Positions 3,235 through 36,972 of a DNA stretch of 64,000 bases are shown piece by piece. This DNA comes from Escherichia coli (lineage in GTDB: Bacteria > Pseudomonadota > Gammaproteobacteria > Enterobacterales > Enterobacteriaceae): the NCBI RefSeq assembly GCF_036507355.1, contig NZ_AP027877.1; one strand, written 5' to 3'. Position numbers and translations under genes: made by a program. The first letter of the stretch is position 1. Every line of letters begins with the position of its first letter. A model generated the notes under the pieces. It had not been told where the DNA came from. It saw only the letters and a program-made list of their open reading frames with translations, and did no database searches.

Positions 3235-3358
3235 TGCCGGATGCGGCGTGAACGCCTTGTCCGGCCTACAAAACTGAAACGCATGTAGGCCTGATAAGAC
3301 GCATCAGTGTCGCATCAGACAGTTGTTGTCGGATAAGGCGTGAAAGCCTTATCCGTCC
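3235..3358. repeat. REP/BIME cluster (three REP units) in malE-malF intergenic
   Basis: GCCGGATGCGGCGTGAACGCCTTGTCCGGCCTACA and inverted copies; classic REP palindromes. Confidence 0.85.
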
Positions 3359-4936: not shown

Positions 4937-5827
4937 ATGGCAATGGTCCAACCGAAATCGCAAAAAGCACGTTTGTTTATTACTCACCTGCTACTGCTAC
5001 TTTTTATCGCGGCGATTATGTTCCCGCTGCTGATGGTCGTCGCTATCTCGCTGCGTCAGGGAAACTTCGCGACCGGTAGCCTGATCCCGGAGCAAATCTC
5101 CTGGGATCACTGGAAACTGGCGTTAGGTTTTAGCGTTGAACAGGCTGATGGTCGCATTACGCCACCGCCATTCCCGGTACTGCTGTGGCTGTGGAACTCG
5201 GTAAAGGTCGCCGGGATTTCCGCGATTGGCATTGTGGCGCTCTCCACCACCTGCGCCTACGCTTTCGCCCGTATGCGCTTTCCAGGCAAAGCGACGCTGC
5301 TGAAAGGAATGCTGATTTTCCAGATGTTCCCGGCAGTACTTTCACTGGTCGCGTTGTATGCGTTGTTTGATCGTCTGGGTGAGTACATTCCATTCATTGG
5401 CCTGAATACTCACGGCGGCGTAATTTTCGCGTATCTGGGTGGGATTGCGCTGCACGTCTGGACCATCAAAGGCTATTTCGAAACCATCGACAGTTCGCTG
5501 GAAGAAGCGGCGGCGCTGGATGGTGCGACACCGTGGCAGGCCTTCTGCCTTGTCCTGTTGCCGCTGTCAGTACCGATTCTGGCGGTGGTGTTCATCCTGT
5601 CGTTTATCGCTGCCATTACTGAAGTTCCGGTCGCGTCGCTGTTACTGCGTGACGTAAACAGCTACACCCTGGCCGTGGGGATGCAGCAATACCTCAACCC
5701 GCAAAACTACCTGTGGGGTGACTTTGCCGCCGCTGCCGTGATGTCTGCATTACCGATCACCATCGTCTTCTTGCTGGCTCAACGCTGGCTGGTCAACGGC
5801 CTGACGGCAGGTGGTGTGAAAGGTTAA
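4937..5827 (+). CDS. malG: maltose ABC transporter permease MalG (296 aa)
   Basis: ORF track; [32 protein letters not shown]... Confidence 0.97.
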
Positions 5828-5897
5828 AGATGTTGTTCTGCCAATGTTATGCCGCTGCACCCTCAACTTACGTTATCCCAACTTGTGACTGTTATTC

Positions 5898-5924
5898 GGC
5901 GCTCCACGGAGCGCCTTTTTTTCT
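5898..5924 (+). terminator. Rho-independent terminator after malG
   Basis: GGCGCTCCACGGAGCGCC hairpin followed by TTTTTTT. Confidence 0.8.
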
Positions 5925-6198
5925 TTCGTCTGCAATCTGAATCGTTCGCCGGTTAATATTTCCATCATAGAGCTTATTATTTTTACGTTATTTGTTTTCC
6001 CACTTACGATAATTCTCTTTCGTGCTCTGAGTCACGGCAATAGTATTGTTTTTATCAATTTTGGATAATTATCACAATTAAGATCACAGAAAAGACATTA
6101 CGTAAACGCATTGTAAAAAATGATAATTGCCTTAACTGCCTGACAATTCCAACATCAATGCACTGATAAAAGATCAGAATGGTCTAAGGCAGGTCCGA

Positions 6199-12953: not shown

Positions 12954-13040
12954 CTGTAGGCCTGATAAGACGCGACCGCGTCGCATCAGGCATCGGTTGC
13001 CGGATGCGGCGTGAACGCCTTATCCGGCCTACATAGCGGC
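12954..13040. repeat. REP/BIME elements downstream of pgi
   Basis: GTAGGCCTGATAAGACGCG...GCCGGATGCGGCGTGAACGCCTTATCCGGCCTACA. Confidence 0.8.
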
Positions 13041-26118: not shown

Positions 26119-27348
26119 ATGAAAACAACAGCTCTGCGTCTTTATGGTAAACGTGATTTACGCCTGGAAACCTTTGACCTTCCTGAAATGCAGGAGGATG
26201 AAATCCTCGCGACGGTGGTCACTGACAGCCTGTGTCTCTCTTCCTGGAAAGAGGCCAACCTGGGTGAAAACCATAAAAAAGTACCCGACGATGTGGCGAC
26301 CAACCCAATCATCATCGGCCACGAGTTTTGCGGCGATATTCTGGCCGTGGGTAAAAAGTGGCAGCACAAATTCCAGCCGGGTCAGCGTTATGTGATTCAG
26401 GCCAACCTGCAACTCCCCGACCGCCCGGACTGCCCCGGCTACTCCTTCCCGTGGGTAGGCGGCGAAGCCACGCATGTGGTTATTCCCAACGAGGTCATGG
26501 AACAAGATTGCCTGCTGGCATACGACGGCGAAACCTATTTTGAAGGCTCGCTGGTTGAACCGCTTTCCTGCGTGATTGGCGCGTTCAACGCCAACTATCA
26601 TCTTCAGAAAGGTAGTTATAACCACACGATGGGGATTCGCCCGCAAGGGCGCATGCTGATCCTCGGCGGCACCGGACCAATGGGGCTGTTGGCGATTGAT
26701 TATGCGCTGCATGGACCCGTTAACCCGTCGCTGCTCGTCATTACCGATACCGACAACGATAAATTGAGTTATGCGCGCAAGCACTATCCATCAGAATCGC
26801 AAACACTGATTCATTATCTCAATGCCACCGATGCAGCATTTGATACGCTAATGGCGCTGAGTGGCGGTCACGGCTTCGATGATATTTTCGTCTTTGTGCC
26901 TAATGAAGGACTGGTGACTCTCGCCTCTTCCTTGCTGGCGACAGATGGTTGCCTGAATTTCTTCGCCGGACCGCAGGATAAACATTTCAGCGCGCCAATT
27001 AATTTCTACGATGTGCATTATGCATTTACCCACTACGTGGGCACGTCAGGCGGCAATACCGACGACATGCGCGCAGCGGTCAAATTGATTGAAGAGAAAA
27101 AAGTGCAGGCCGCAAAAGTGGTAACACATATTCTTGGGCTGAATGCCGCGGGCGAAACCACGCTTGAATTGCCTGCCGTCGGCGGCGGCAAAAAGCTGGT
27201 GTATACCGGGAAATACCTGCCGCTGACGTCACTCACGCAGATTCAGGATCAAGCACTGGCGGCGATTCTGACGCGTCATCAGGGGATCTGGTCCGGTGAG
27301 GCGGAGCAATATCTGCTCACTCATGCAGAGGCAATTTCCCATGATTAA
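26119..27348 (+). CDS. sorE: zinc-dependent MDR-family dehydrogenase SorE (sorbose-1-phosphate reductase-like, ~409 aa)
   Basis: ORF 26107..27348; start taken at MKTTALRLYG; last gene of sorCDFBAME. Confidence 0.85.
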   Translation: MKTTALRLYGKRDLRLETFDLPEMQEDEILATVVTDSLCLSSWKEANLGENHKKVPDDVATNPIIIGHEFCGDILAVGKKWQHKFQPGQRYVIQANLQLPDRPDCPGYSFPWVGGEATHVVIPNEVMEQDCLLAYDGETYFEGSLVEPLSCVIGAFNANYHLQKGSYNHTMGIRPQGRMLILGGTGPMGLLAIDYALHGPVNPSLLVITDTDNDKLSYARKHYPSESQTLIHYLNATDAAFDTLMALSGGHGFDDIFVFVPNEGLVTLASSLLATDGCLNFFAGPQDKHFSAPINFYDVHYAFTHYVGTSGGNTDDMRAAVKLIEEKKVQAAKVVTHILGLNAAGETTLELPAVGGGKKLVYTGKYLPLTSLTQIQDQALAAILTRHQGIWSGEAEQYLLTHAEAISHD

Positions 27349-27509
27349 TCGCACTACTCAACTCTGCATGTCGCTGGCAGGTCGCCGCGGCAACTTCGCG
27401 ACCTGATGTGCGGCTGATTGCTGAAGCGGCCCAATGTGCACGAGAAGGATAAAAAAACATCAGCGCCTTAAGGGGCGCTCAAATTGGTGGCAAAGTACAC
27501 ATTGTTTAT

Positions 27510-27612
27510 GCCGGATGCGGAATAAAGCCTTATTCGGCCTACATAATCTCGAAAATTCAATATATTGCAGTTATCTGGTAGGCCTGGTAAGCGTAGCGCA
27601 TCAGGCAATGCT
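27510..27612. repeat. REP/BIME elements between sorE and pepE
   Basis: TGCCGGATGCGGAATAAAGCCTTATTCGGCCTACA ... GGTAGGCCTGGTAAGCGTAGCGCATCAGGCAATG. Confidence 0.8.
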
Positions 27613-27730
27613 GTGTTTGTCATCAGTCTCAGCGCCCGGTGCAATACGTGACATCGTGAGCCATGTCAGTAAGTGGTTAAATTCGCAGTGGTAGCATGCC
27701 TTCCGTGATTTCTTACTAACCGGAGAAGTA

Positions 27731-28420
27731 ATGGAACTGCTTTTATTGAGTAACTCGACGCTGCCGGGTAAAGCCTGGCTGGAACATGCACTGCCGCTGA
27801 TTGCTGAACAGTTGCAGGGTCGCCGCTCAGCGGTGTTTATCCCTTTCGCTGGCGTAACGCAGACCTGGGATGATTACACAGCGAAAACGGCTGCGGTTCT
27901 TGCTCCGCTGGGTGTTTCTGTCACCGGTATTCATAACGTTGTCGATCCCGTTGCCGCGATTGAAAATGCGGAAATTGTGATTGTCGGCGGCGGGAATACT
28001 TTCCAGTTGCTGAAACAGTGCCGCGAGCGCGGGCTGCTGGCTCCAATTACTGACGTGGTTAAACGTGGTGCGCTGTATATTGGCTGGAGCGCAGGCGCTA
28101 ACCTTGCTTGCCCAACCATTCGTACCACCAACGATATGCCGATTGTCGACCCGCAAGGTTTCGATGCGCTGAATCTGTTCCCGTTGCAAATCAACCCGCA
28201 CTTCACCAACGCGTTGCCGGAAGGCCATAAAGGTGAAACCCGTGAACAGCGTATTCGCGAACTGCTGGTCGTCGCGCCAGAACTGACGATTATTGGTCTG
28301 CCGGAAGGTAACTGGATCACAGTGAGTAAAGGTCACGCTACGCTGGGTGGCCCGAACACCACTTATGTGTTTAAGGCTGGTGAAGAAGCGGTTCCGCTAG
28401 AAGCTGGTCACCGTTTTTAA
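27731..28420 (+). CDS. pepE: alpha-aspartyl dipeptidase PepE (229 aa)
   Basis: ORF track; [41 protein letters not shown]... Confidence 0.95.
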
Positions 28421-28424
28421 GTGA

Positions 28425-28500
28425 ATTGCCGGATGCATGATCCGGCATCTTGTTCATAGTGCCTGATGCGACGCTTGACGCGTCTTATCAGGCCTACAGG
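28425..28500. repeat. REP elements downstream of pepE
   Basis: TGCCGGATGCATGATCCGGCA palindrome plus GCCTGATGCGACGCTTGACGCGTCTTATCAGGCCTACAGG. Confidence 0.75.
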
Positions 28501-28510
28501 ATTCACAATA

Positions 28511-30142
28511 TTAATACTCGTCCCGTCCTTCATCTTCATCCGGCTGTTCCAGCACACTGTAAGCCACCGAACAAAACAGCGAGTTCAGGCGCTGCATATC
28601 TCCCAGTAAGCCTAAATGTAGCGAACTGGTTTCAATGCTCTGCACGTTTTGCTGATGCAGGCGATCGACGTGGGCGTGGGAATAGCGGCGATTAAGAATG
28701 CGAAAACGATGTTTGCTGCGGCGCAAACGACGGGCGCTGGTAACATCCCCAGAGAAGAAAACCGACATTGCCAGTTTTAAATTACTGAGCAATTGCTCAT
28801 AGAGCGCATCCAGTTCCTTCAACCCATCAAGCGAAAATGCCCGCCGTGCTGCCAGCGATTTATCAGCAATTTCGCTGCCCATGCGCTCGACGATATCGGA
28901 GGCCTGTTCAAGGTTGAGCGACATTTCGATGATCTCCGCCCAGCGGCGCGACTCTTCCTCCGCCAGCTCTTCTTTTGGCATCCGCGCCAGATACAGCTTA
29001 ATGGCGGTATAGAGAACGTTGATATCATCTGCCAGCTTACGCAGCTCTTTCTCCTGCCGTGGCTCGCCGTGCATCACTTTATTCAGCCCTTCCATCATCT
29101 GTTCCATGGCGTCGCCAATGCGCAGGGTTTCGCGCGCGGCGTTCGCCAGAGCAAGCGTGGGCGTATCCAGCGCGCTGACATCCAGATGTTTAGGCCGTAG
29201 CTGGGTATCCAGTTCCGGTTCATCGCGAATAATCGTTTTGCAAAACCGTGCCATCGGGTCAACAAATGGCAGCATGACCAGGCAACGTATAAGGTTGTAG
29301 AAGACGTGGAAATAGATCACCAGTTCCGCTTTTGGCAATGACAACCTCCCCATTGTCTCTGCCAGCAAATGGACAAACGGCAGGATAATCAGGCTACCCA
29401 CCAGCTTAAACAGCAAACTACCCAGCGCGACACGGCGGGCTGCGGCATTGGCGGCACTGTTGTTGAGCATCGCCAGCAGGCCGGAACCGAGGTTAGCACC
29501 AATCACCAGACAGAGCGCCACGGGGAAGGAGATAATGCCTGCGGCGGTCAGAGTCGCAGTCAGCAGTACAGCAGCAAGGCTGGAGTAGCTGATAATGGCG
29601 AACATCGCGCCAATCAGCGCATCCAGCAGAATATCGCCGGTCAGCGAGGCAAAGATCACCTGAACGCCGTTTGCCTGGGTGATCGGCGTTACGGCCTGCA
29701 CAATCAACTCCAGCGCCAGCAAAATCAGCCCAAGACCAATACCGACGCGGCCCAGTTGCCCGGCGCGTGACTGTTTGCGTCCGAGGAAAAAAATCACGCC
29801 GATAAAAATAAGTAACGGTGACAGCCAGGATAAGTCGAAGGTGAGAATACGCGCCATTAGCGCCGTCCCGACATCAGCACCCAGCACAATCACCAGAGCC
29901 GGTGCGAGGGCTACCAGATCCTGAGCGACGAACGAGGTCACCAGCATGGTGGTGGCATTACTGCTCTGCACCAGTGCGGTAACGCCGATCCCCGCGCAAA
30001 AGGCGAGCGGCTTCTTTTCGACGCTCCGGCTAAGGACAGTACGCAAACGCGCGCCGAAGACGCGCATTACGCCGGTTCGAACAATATGAGTCCCCCAGAC
30101 CAGCAGGGCGACGGCAGAAAGCAGGTGAAGCAGCGTTAACAC
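28511..30142 (-). CDS. yjbB: putative Na+/phosphate cotransporter-family membrane protein YjbB (543 aa)
   Basis: ORF track; polytopic N-terminal domain plus PhoU-like C-terminal domain. Confidence 0.9.
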   Translation of the reverse strand: MLTLLHLLSAVALLVWGTHIVRTGVMRVFGARLRTVLSRSVEKKPLAFCAGIGVTALVQSSNATTMLVTSFVAQDLVALAPALVIVLGADVGTALMARILTFDLSWLSPLLIFIGVIFFLGRKQSRAGQLGRVGIGLGLILLALELIVQAVTPITQANGVQVIFASLTGDILLDALIGAMFAIISYSSLAAVLLTATLTAAGIISFPVALCLVIGANLGSGLLAMLNNSAANAAARRVALGSLLFKLVGSLIILPFVHLLAETMGRLSLPKAELVIYFHVFYNLIRCLVMLPFVDPMARFCKTIIRDEPELDTQLRPKHLDVSALDTPTLALANAARETLRIGDAMEQMMEGLNKVMHGEPRQEKELRKLADDINVLYTAIKLYLARMPKEELAEEESRRWAEIIEMSLNLEQASDIVERMGSEIADKSLAARRAFSLDGLKELDALYEQLLSNLKLAMSVFFSGDVTSARRLRRSKHRFRILNRRYSHAHVDRLHQQNVQSIETSSLHLGLLGDMQRLNSLFCSVAYSVLEQPDEDEGRDEY

Positions 30143-36836: not shown

Positions 36837-36972
36837 TGCCGGATGCGGCGTAAACGCCTTATCCAGCCTACGTTCGGCAACGGTTGTAGGCATGATAAGA
36901 CGCGCAAGCGTCGCATCAGGCATCGTGCACCGATTGCCGGATGCGGCGTAAATGCCTTATCCGGCCTACAGT
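36837..36972. repeat. REP/BIME cluster between aceA and aceK
   Basis: Multiple GCCGGATGCGGCGTAAACGCCTTATCC / GTAGGCATGATAAGACGCG units. Confidence 0.85.

What the first reader, a model, noticed from the sequence alone, without database searches (positions are those of the whole stretch)
27377..27479. Two stem-loops at the sorE-pepE junction, one oriented as a minus-strand terminator facing into the sor operon
Immediately after sorE there is an 8-bp-stem hairpin CAGGTCGC-N12-GCGACCTG without a U-tract. About 50 bp further on, the palindrome AGCGCC-ttaagg-GGCGCT is preceded on the plus strand by AAAAAAA, so on the minus strand it reads as hairpin plus U7, a canonical intrinsic terminator for leftward transcription. 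No minus-strand gene lies directly upstream of it (pepE is on the plus strand), so it may insulate the sor operon from antisense read-through originating near the pepE promoter, or be an ancestral element of the rluF-pepE divergent region displaced by the insertion.
Basis: seen in the sequence. Interest (0 to 1): 0.25.

Follow-up and report, generated by a model that had tools for sequence, protein, structure and literature searches.

The report
Deleted-gene scar with inherited hairpin
The two stem-loops sit in the 112-base remnant of a lost eighth gene of the sorbose operon (sdhL): the first was created by the deletion, and the second is the old end-of-operon hairpin, so this is ordinary genome decay rather than a new regulatory device.

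Summary
Both stem-loops are present as described: hairpin 1 at 27378-27405, hairpin 2 at 27462-27479, and an A7 run at 27451-27457.

The stretch is not plain intergenic DNA. Window 27341-27452 is the remnant of sdhL, an HI0607-type shikimate-dehydrogenase-family gene. In 176+1 E. coli genomes and more than 20 other enterobacterial species, sdhL is intact. There it is 813 nt long, and its ATG overlaps the sorE stop codon.

A 701-nt internal deletion (junction 27397|27398) is shared by 2688 of the 2865 sor-positive complete E. coli genomes.

Hairpin 1 straddles that junction, one arm from each end of the dead gene. Its perfect 8-bp stem depends on a base (A27379) found in no other genome examined. 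The common haplotype folds no better than shuffled sequence.

Hairpin 2 is the conserved stem-loop that follows the sdhL stop codon in Escherichia, Citrobacter, Klebsiella and Raoultella. Its A-run is the old TAA stop plus a change seen only in genomes with the deletion.

On the minus strand it resembles a terminator, but a weak one: a 4-nt spacer precedes the U-run, and no gene or promoter was found upstream.

It is absent from K-12-type DNA, so it is not an rluF-pepE relic. It is not part of the neighbouring BIME (27510-27606).

Ordinary; low interest.

The parts
26119..27348 (+). sorE (L-sorbose 1-phosphate reductase), the last intact gene of the sor operon
   Evidence: ORF list. RefSeq annotation of a 99%-identical O157:H7 locus.
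27341..27452 (+). Remnant of sdhL, an HI0607-type shikimate-dehydrogenase-family gene. The 5' fragment is 27341-27397 and the 3' fragment is 27398-27452. The intact gene is 813 nt, so 701 nt are missing.
   Evidence: The intact gene lies between the two fragments in E. whittamii, E. albertii, other Escherichia, Pseudocitrobacter and 177 E. coli genomes. Family assignment: NCBIfam NF009202 E = 3.9e-139, PDB 1npy E = 5.9e-113, Pfam PF08501 and PF01488.
27341..27406 (+). Residual 21-codon ORF (MINRTTQLCMSLAGRRGNFAT*). Its ATG overlaps the sorE stop (ATGATTAA), and it runs out of frame after the junction to TGA 27404-27406.
   Evidence: Translation. The start context is identical to that of intact sdhL. 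Whether it is translated is inferred, not shown.
27397..27398 (.). Deletion junction (ggcaacttc|gcgacctg), with about 1 nt of microhomology
   Evidence: By-eye comparison of the printed 5' and 3' ends with six intact sequences. The same junction is covered in 2688 E. coli complete genomes and shows no indels in 13 sampled haplotypes.
27378..27405 (.). Hairpin 1. The left arm comes from sdhL codons 13-15 and the right arm from the 3' fragment, brought 12 nt apart by the deletion.
   Evidence: A27379 is T in all 12 other E. coli sequences sampled, and no exact match exists in 5426 genomes. Folding of the common haplotypes is like shuffles.
27450..27452 (+). Former sdhL stop codon TAA. Its last two bases are the first two A of the A7 run.
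   Evidence: Comparison with intact genes.
27451..27457 (.). A7 run (U7 on the minus strand). Sequences with intact sdhL have TAAGAAACA here.
   Evidence: The run is A7 or A6 in all 13 deletion-type E. coli sampled.
27462..27479 (.). Hairpin 2, the inherited stem-loop that follows the sdhL stop codon (the end of the sor-sdhL operon)
   Evidence: It is homologous to (A)GAGCGCC-loop-GGCGCTC(T), found 3-16 nt after the sdhL stop in 21 species. About 89% of cells are paired in register, against 20-56% when the partner is slid. It is invariant in 13 E. coli haplotypes.
27510..27606 (.). BIME: REP 27510-27542, spacer, and inverted REP 27578-27606. This is a separate element downstream of the finding.
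   Evidence: Inverted repeat I1. Exact match to a REP consensus recalled from memory at 27578-27606. Same-family REP copies elsewhere in the window and in L001. A weak naRNA4/REP hit.
27632..27730 (+). pepE upstream DNA shared with E. coli that lack sor (K-12 type). This marks the right edge of the sor-specific block.
27731..28420 (+). pepE (dipeptidase E)

Best explanation
The DNA between sorE and the BIME is the scar of a lost gene.

**Ancestral state.** The sor operon carried an eighth gene, sdhL, an HI0607-type member of the shikimate dehydrogenase family. Its ATG overlaps the sorE stop codon. It was followed within a few bases by a GC-rich stem-loop marking the end of the operon.

**The deletion.** In the lineage that gave rise to most sor-positive E. 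coli, a single 701-nt internal deletion removed all but the first 57 and last 55 nt of sdhL.

**Hairpin 1.** It is an accident of that deletion. Two short, nearly complementary pieces of coding sequence that lay about 700 nt apart now lie 12 nt apart. In this strain alone a T-to-A change at 27379 makes the stem perfect. It lies inside the residual 21-codon ORF, and I assign it no function.

**Hairpin 2.** It is the inherited end-of-operon hairpin.
- On the plus strand it lacks a U-tail. Together with the downstream BIME, it most likely acts as a 3'-end-protecting or weakly attenuating structure for sor transcripts (inferred).
- On the minus strand, decay of the now-useless stop-codon context (TAAGAAACA to TAAAAAAACA) gave it a U-run. 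It may therefore stop some leftward transcription if any occurs. This looks like a by-product, not a selected insulator (inferred).
For: **The remnant**
- Intact sdhL lies exactly between the two fragments in other Escherichia and in Pseudocitrobacter.
- sorE-sdhL is found in 28 loci, usually with pepE downstream. These span Escherichia, Citrobacter, Klebsiella, Raoultella, Enterobacter and Serratia.

**E. coli genome counts**
- 2865 of 5426 complete genomes have sor at this site.
- 2688 of them have the deletion junction and 177 have an intact, annotated 'shikimate 5-dehydrogenase'.

**Hairpin 1**
- The arms come from the two sides of the junction.
- The stem is imperfect in all 12 other haplotypes.
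- z = -0.59 and -0.33 for the common haplotypes.
- The remnant is polymorphic, with about 18 variable sites in 101 nt among 13 sequences.

**Hairpin 2**
- It sits right after the sdhL stop in 21 species, while the flanking spacers and loops differ.
- It is paired in register at 88-90%, against 20-56% for slid controls.
- It is invariant in 13 E. coli haplotypes.
- The A-run is absent from all intact-sdhL sequences.
- The proximal T-tail score is 1.29, against 5.0-5.5 for the three clean terminators in the window.
Against: - No transcript data were available for any sor-positive strain, so every functional statement is inference. The supplements searched held nothing.
- On the plus strand hairpin 2 has no U-tract (T-score 0.26), so a terminator role there is not demonstrated.
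- 176 E. coli genomes with intact sdhL lack its right arm altogether. The hairpin is therefore dispensable in at least that lineage.
- The strict hairpin plus T-run motif is rare by chance (0.18 expected per 64 kb).
- The A6-A7 run is present in all 13 deletion-type haplotypes, while hairpin 2 and the 18 nt after it are invariant next to a polymorphic remnant. Both facts are compatible with some selection, possibly for a minus-strand role.
- G-U versus A-C counts do not tell the strands apart: 89.9% paired on plus and 88.1% on minus.
Confidence: 0.85

Rival explanations
1. One reading: hairpin 2 plus U7 is a working intrinsic terminator for leftward (minus-strand) transcription. Selection keeps it to shield the sor operon from antisense transcripts that start near pepE or the BIME.
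For: - The hairpin plus T-run motif is rare by chance: 4 sites in 64 kb against 0.18 expected.
- Stem energy (-9.7 kcal/mol) is close to that of the three clean terminators in the window (-10.6 to -13.3).
- An extended fold pairs the upstream AAU with the first bases of the U-run, leaving 5 U directly after the structure.
- The A-run (A6 or A7) is present in all 13 deletion-type haplotypes, and the hairpin is invariant.
- In Klebsiella and Citrobacter the same hairpin ends a minus-strand ccdAB operon.
- C. amalonaticus has TTTTT directly after it on the minus strand (T-score 3.64).
Against: - There is no minus-strand gene between the hairpin and pepE, and no promoter-like site on either strand in 26800-28600.
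- The 4-nt GAUG spacer gives a proximal T-tail score of 1.29.
- The A-run is absent from every lineage with intact sdhL, including the one E. coli that keeps the hairpin and BIME.
- It arose in a stop-codon context that lost its constraint when the gene died.
- 176 sor-positive genomes lack the hairpin altogether.
Confidence: 0.1
2. Hairpin 1 and/or hairpin 2 are functional plus-strand terminators of the sor operon in present-day E. coli. Hairpin 1 would have replaced the original terminator after the deletion.
For: - Both lie just downstream of the last intact gene.
- Hairpin 1 is strong in this strain (-22.5 kcal/mol with flanks).
- In some genera the plus-strand tail of the hairpin 2 homologue is U-rich. 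T-scores are 2.2-2.7 in Citrobacter MGH106 and wls619 and in Raoultella.
Against: - Neither hairpin is followed by a U-tract on the plus strand in E. coli.
- Hairpin 1 is imperfect and statistically unremarkable in all other E. coli haplotypes.
- Hairpin 1 lies inside a residual ORF whose stop codon overlaps its right arm.
Confidence: 0.15
3. The hairpins are part of a REP/BIME repeat unit.
For: A BIME lies 30 nt downstream at 27510-27606. REP copies occur elsewhere in the window.
Against: - Neither hairpin sequence recurs in the window with up to 3 mismatches.
- Each occurs once per genome in 2865 E. coli genomes.
- Hairpin 2 is present after sdhL in genera that have no BIME at this site.
Confidence: 0.01

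Closest known systems
Gene remnant left by an internal deletion (here of sdhL, the HI0607 / PDB 1NPY type of shikimate-dehydrogenase-like protein)
   Same: The 5' and 3' ends are collinear with the intact gene in close relatives. The residual frame is shifted (701 nt lost). Polymorphism in the remnant is raised. The gene's presence or absence in E. coli lineages has already been reported (PMC12817954).
   Different: At 112 nt the remnant is too short for annotation pipelines. RefSeq records show no feature here. The paper speaks of absence, not of a scar.
Rho-independent (intrinsic) terminators, including bidirectional ones between convergent genes
   Same: A GC-rich 6-8 bp stem with a 4-7 nt loop, placed directly after a stop codon. 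In Klebsiella and Citrobacter it lies between convergent genes. In E. coli a U7 run follows on the minus strand.
   Different: There is no U-tract on the plus strand in E. coli. On the minus strand the U-run is separated from the stem by 4 nt, and nothing known is transcribed towards it. Across genera, neither strand has a consistently U-rich tail.
REP/BIME elements at operon ends (mRNA 3'-end protection and attenuation; from general knowledge)
   Same: They occupy the same kind of position, downstream of the last gene of an operon. A BIME lies immediately next to hairpin 2.
   Different: The hairpins are single-copy and are not REP sequences.

Membership tests
Intrinsic (Rho-independent) terminator, minus strand | Stable GC-rich stem-loop | tested here: met
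   A 6-bp stem with 5 GC pairs and a 6-nt loop, at -9.7 kcal/mol. The three clean terminator-like sites in the window give -10.6 to -13.3.
Intrinsic (Rho-independent) terminator, minus strand | U-tract immediately (0-2 nt) after the stem | tested here: inconclusive
   U7 is present but starts 4 nt after the stem. The proximal T-tail score is 1.29 against 5.0-5.5 for the other sites (the scoring formula is recalled from d'Aubenton Carafa 1990). An alternative interrupted extended stem would leave 5 U adjacent.
Intrinsic (Rho-independent) terminator, minus strand | Lies at the 3' end of a transcription unit on that strand | tested here: not met
   There is no minus-strand gene between the hairpin and pepE and no promoter-like site. 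The feature is met only in Klebsiella and Citrobacter, where ccdB ends at the hairpin.
Intrinsic (Rho-independent) terminator, minus strand | RNA 3' ends map to the U-tract in vivo or in vitro | not testable with these tools
   No Term-seq or 3'-end data for a sor-positive strain could be retrieved.
Intrinsic terminator, plus strand (end of sor operon) | Stem-loop directly after the last stop codon of the operon | tested here: met
   It lies 9 nt after the former sdhL stop in E. coli and 3-16 nt after it in 21 species.
Intrinsic terminator, plus strand (end of sor operon) | U-tract after the stem | tested here: not met
   The plus-strand tail is CAAATTGGTGGCAAA, T-score 0.26.
Gene remnant / pseudogene of sdhL | Collinear homology to both ends of an intact gene at the same locus in relatives | tested here: met
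Gene remnant / pseudogene of sdhL | Reading frame destroyed | tested here: met
   701 nt are lost, which is not a multiple of 3. The residual ORF has 21 codons.
Gene remnant / pseudogene of sdhL | The intact gene is a recognisable protein family member | tested here: met
   NF009202 scores 462 bits (cut-off 306). PDB 1npy gives E = 5.9e-113 over 268 of 270 residues.
REP/BIME | Dispersed multi-copy palindromic unit matching the REP consensus | tested here: not met
   The hairpins are single-copy in the window and in each genome. The true BIME is at 27510-27606.

The most novel reading that the evidence does not exclude
After sdhL was deleted, the E. coli lineage carrying the scar fixed an A-run next to the inherited operon-end hairpin. 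That converted the hairpin into a minus-strand terminator that blocks antisense transcripts from the BIME/pepE side from entering the strongly sorbose-induced sor operon. In parallel, the 21-codon leftover ORF, still translationally coupled to sorE, would continue to be translated and would influence sorE mRNA 3' stability.
Probability: 0.08. Interest if true: 0.3.

Novelty: new member of a known kind. Interest (0 to 1): 0.15.

Why it matters
The main value is for annotation and for avoiding over-interpretation.

- **An unannotated scar.** A feature that looks like a pair of regulatory stem-loops is really an unannotated deletion scar. It is present in 2688 of 5426 complete E. coli genomes, about half.
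- **The true operon.** The ancestral sor operon had eight genes, sorCDFBAME-sdhL.
- **Direction of change.** On the pepE side the sor cluster looks ancestral, not inserted.
- **A lineage marker.** The shared junction is a handy marker for E. coli lineages.
- **A lead on sdhL.** Its tight coupling to sorE across genera hints that HI0607-type 'shikimate dehydrogenase-like' proteins act in sorbose-related metabolism. That question about the protein family is still open.

None of this would surprise a specialist.

Tried and rejected
- **Rfam.** A permissive E-value scan of 27200-27800 gave only sub-threshold chance hits. The best were a REP-related naRNA4 at 27504-27539 and sraL at 10.4 bits. No known RNA family is present.
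- **Ancestral rluF-pepE element.** Rejected, because K-12-type DNA lacks the hairpin.
- **REP/BIME membership.** Rejected.
- **Strand assignment from G-U versus A-C asymmetry.** By hand I counted about 5 changes compatible only with the plus strand and 3 only with the minus strand. Formal counts gave 89.9% against 88.1% paired. This is inconclusive.
- **Regex extraction of hairpin arms.** My first attempt was in the wrong register and was discarded. It was replaced by hand-curated sequences.
- **MAFFT placement of the deletion gap.** The placement is off. The junction was set from the printed ends.
- **Transcript evidence from the literature.** The RIBOseq small-gene paper on Sakai has no entry for sorE, pepE or sorbose in its supplements. 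The EHEC Term-seq paper has no supplements held as text.
- **Deletion caused by the inverted repeat.** I considered whether the repeat that forms hairpin 1 caused the deletion. I rejected this as unsupported. Both arms are retained, the junction has only about 1 nt of microhomology, and the arms were imperfect complements in intact genes.

Full report
**1. The observation**

The window is E. coli DNA carrying the L-sorbose (sor) operon. sorE ends at TAA 27346-27348 and pepE starts at 27731.

- Hairpin 1 is CAGGTCGC (27378-27385), a 12-nt loop, and GCGACCTG (27398-27405).
- Hairpin 2 is AGCGCC (27462-27467), ttaagg, and GGCGCT (27474-27479). A7 lies at 27451-27457.

On the minus strand hairpin 2 reads hairpin, then GAUG, then U7. 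The U-run is therefore 4 nt from the stem, which is not quite 'canonical'.

Hairpin 1 folds somewhat better than shuffles in this strain: z = -2.0, with 7 of 200 shuffles as good. Hairpin 2 gives z = -2.9 on the plus strand and -3.4 on the minus strand.

**2. What the stretch is**

I searched one genome per bacterial species for relatives of SorE and compared what lies downstream. The first ~50 nt after sorE and the DNA from 27398 onward are both conserved in other Escherichia and in Pseudocitrobacter. In those genomes, about 700 nt separate the two pieces.

In E. whittamii (L003) that extra DNA completes an 813-nt ORF at 5223-6035. Its ATG overlaps the sorE stop codon (ATGATTAA).

The 270-residue product is a shikimate-dehydrogenase-family protein of the HI0607 'SDH-like' type.
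- NCBIfam NF009202: E = 3.9e-139, 462 bits against a cut-off of 306.
- PDB 1npy: E = 5.9e-113.
- Pfam PF08501 and PF01488.

The same gene directly follows sorE in 28 loci. They come from Escherichia, Pseudocitrobacter, Citrobacter, Klebsiella, Raoultella, Enterobacter and Serratia, and pepE usually lies downstream.

Window 27341-27452 is therefore what is left of this gene, sdhL: its first 57 nt and its last 55 nt. The loss is 701 nt (813 minus 112), which shifts the frame. A 21-codon ORF remains, MINRTTQLCMSLAGRRGNFAT*, at 27341-27406.

The junction is ggcaacttc|gcgacctg at 27397|27398, with about one base of microhomology.

**3. How common it is in E. coli**

Among 5426 complete E. coli genomes, 2865 have sor DNA at this site.
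- 2688 cover a probe that spans the deletion junction.
- 177 instead carry an intact gene annotated 'shikimate 5-dehydrogenase'.

No feature is annotated over the remnant in RefSeq records.

Thirteen haplotypes, sampled across the identity range, share the junction without indels. They include O157:H7 and strain 536. This points to one old deletion event.

[quoted passage not shown] It does not mention a remnant.

**4. Hairpin 1**

The left arm comes from the 5' fragment of sdhL, where intact genes read GCT/C GGT CGC. The right arm is the first 8 nt of the 3' fragment, where intact genes read CGA CCT GAT. The deletion brought them 12 nt apart.

In intact genes the two arms are only imperfect complements. 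In all 12 other E. coli sequences examined, position 27379 is T, not A, which puts a T-T mismatch in the stem. O157 has a second mismatch. No genome in the collection matches the window exactly here; the best is 98.7%.

The common haplotype folds like shuffled sequence (z = -0.59), and so does the O157 haplotype (z = -0.33).

The surrounding remnant is polymorphic, with about 18 variable sites in 101 nt among 13 sequences. The right arm overlaps the stop codon of the leftover ORF.

I conclude that hairpin 1 is a by-product of the deletion plus one strain-private substitution, and has no function.

**5. Hairpin 2**

Its position makes sense only relative to the dead gene. It begins 9 nt after the former sdhL stop codon (TAA 27450-27452).

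A homologous stem, (A)GAGCGCC-loop-GGCGCTC(T), follows the sdhL stop by 3-16 nt in 21 species of six genera. The spacers, loops and downstream DNA differ among them.

In register, 88-90% of cells pair, against 20-56% when the 3' partner is slid. The two strands score alike, and G-U versus A-C asymmetries do not favour either strand.

Within deletion-type E. coli, the 18 nt of the hairpin and the 18 nt after it were invariant in all 13 haplotypes.

In Klebsiella and several Citrobacter, a minus-strand ccdA/ccdB pair converges on the hairpin. The ccdB stop codon abuts it. In those genera it lies between convergent genes, like a bidirectional terminator.

In Escherichia a BIME occupies that space instead.

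Across genera, neither strand has a consistently U-rich tail.

**6. The A-run and the minus-strand terminator idea**

Every sequence with intact sdhL has TAAGAAACATC (TAGAAACATC in E. albertii). That includes the one E. coli genome that keeps sdhL, the hairpin and the BIME. Deletion-type E. coli have TAAAAAAACATC, or an A6/TATC variant.

So the first two A of the run are the old stop codon. The rest arose by a G-to-A change plus one extra A, in a context that lost its constraint when the gene died.

*In favour of a real minus-strand terminator:*
- A strict hairpin plus T-run search finds only four sites in 64 kb, against 0.18 expected.
- The stem energy is similar to that of the other three sites.
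- The A-run is present in all deletion-type haplotypes.

*Against:*
- The 4-nt spacer gives a stem-proximal T-tail score of 1.29, against 5.0-5.5 for the other three sites (the formula is recalled from d'Aubenton Carafa 1990).
- No minus-strand gene lies upstream.
- The consensus scan finds no promoter-like site on either strand in 26800-28600.
- 176 sor-positive genomes (CE10 type) lack the right arm of the hairpin and the BIME entirely.

I put about 0.1 on a selected antisense-insulator role. Some incidental termination, if leftward transcription occurs at all, is more plausible.

**7.

The hairpin is not a relic of the rluF-pepE divergent region.
- K-12-type genomes share only window positions from about 27632-27641 onward.
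- They have unrelated filler in place of the sor block.
- They have no match to the hairpin.

The sorE-sdhL-pepE order is shared across genera. On the pepE side, the sor cluster therefore looks ancestral and the K-12 state looks derived. The rluF side was not examined in other genera.

The hairpins are not part of a REP/BIME unit. They are single-copy. The BIME is a separate element at 27510-27606.

Rfam has nothing above threshold here.

**8. Most likely working**

- *Shown:* the gene remnant, the junction, the origin of both hairpins, and their conservation patterns.
- *Inferred:* hairpin 2, together with the BIME, serves as a 3'-end-protecting or weakly attenuating structure for plus-strand sor transcripts. 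This rests on general knowledge of REP/BIME elements and 3' stem-loops.
- *Inferred:* ribosomes coupled from sorE may still translate the 21-codon ORF through hairpin 1.
- *Inferred:* the minus-strand terminator appearance is a by-product.

No transcript-end data for a sor-positive strain could be retrieved.

**9. Verdict**

The feature is an ordinary, unannotated deletion scar plus an inherited operon-end hairpin. It is a new member of known kinds, of low interest (0.15).

Noticed in passing
L014 6064-6674 (Klebsiella grimontii); similar in L007, L009, L013, L015, L023, L031: A minus-strand ccdA/ccdB toxin-antitoxin pair lies between sdhL and pepE. Pfam gives CcdB 6e-24 and CcdA 2.9e-24. The ccdB stop codon abuts the conserved hairpin. 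Escherichia has a BIME at the same place.
   Followed up: partly
L003 5223-6035 and 27 other loci; window 27341-27452 is the remnant: HI0607-type sdhL is coupled to sorE (ATGATTAA overlap) across many enterobacterial genera and is sorbose-induced in ST648 (PMC12817954). It has a distant PDB match to a shikimate-DH-family 5-ketofructose reductase (7cok, 2.2e-16). That enzyme makes L-sorbose (from memory). SdhL may therefore belong to sorbose-related metabolism rather than the shikimate pathway.
   Followed up: no
L083 2312-2435 (E. coli CE10) and 175 similar genomes: E. coli genomes that keep intact sdhL (CE10 type) lack the right arm of hairpin 2 and the whole BIME. The sdhL-pepE spacer is only 122 nt. 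One genome (JNEC-KY178, L084) has intact sdhL plus the hairpin and BIME, like other Escherichia species.
   Followed up: partly
L043 3526-4326 (Escherichia albertii): The BIME-containing segment between sdhL and pepE is present in three to four tandem copies, giving a 746-nt spacer. sorE in this genome, and in L044, appears frameshifted in tblastn.
   Followed up: no
L002 about 2906-2990 (K-12-type E. coli); window about 21326 and 27632-27641 are the block edges: In sor-less E. coli, about 85-100 bp of unrelated filler replaces the ~6.3-kb sor block between rluF and pepE. Its origin was not traced. Its right end resembles the CE10-type spacer (ccagaagcaatg).
   Followed up: no
window 5898-5915 (+), 12881-12863 (-), 40151-40136 (-): Three clean terminator-like sites: perfect 6-7 bp GC-rich stems directly followed by T6-T7, with T-tail scores of 5.0-5.5. 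They served as internal comparators. The genes they end were not checked.
   Followed up: no
window 3236-3269, 12999-13032, 36838-36871, 36936-36969: Further REP copies of the same family as the REP at 27510-27542. The copy at 27510 has a 1-nt shorter centre and diverged loop bases.
   Followed up: no
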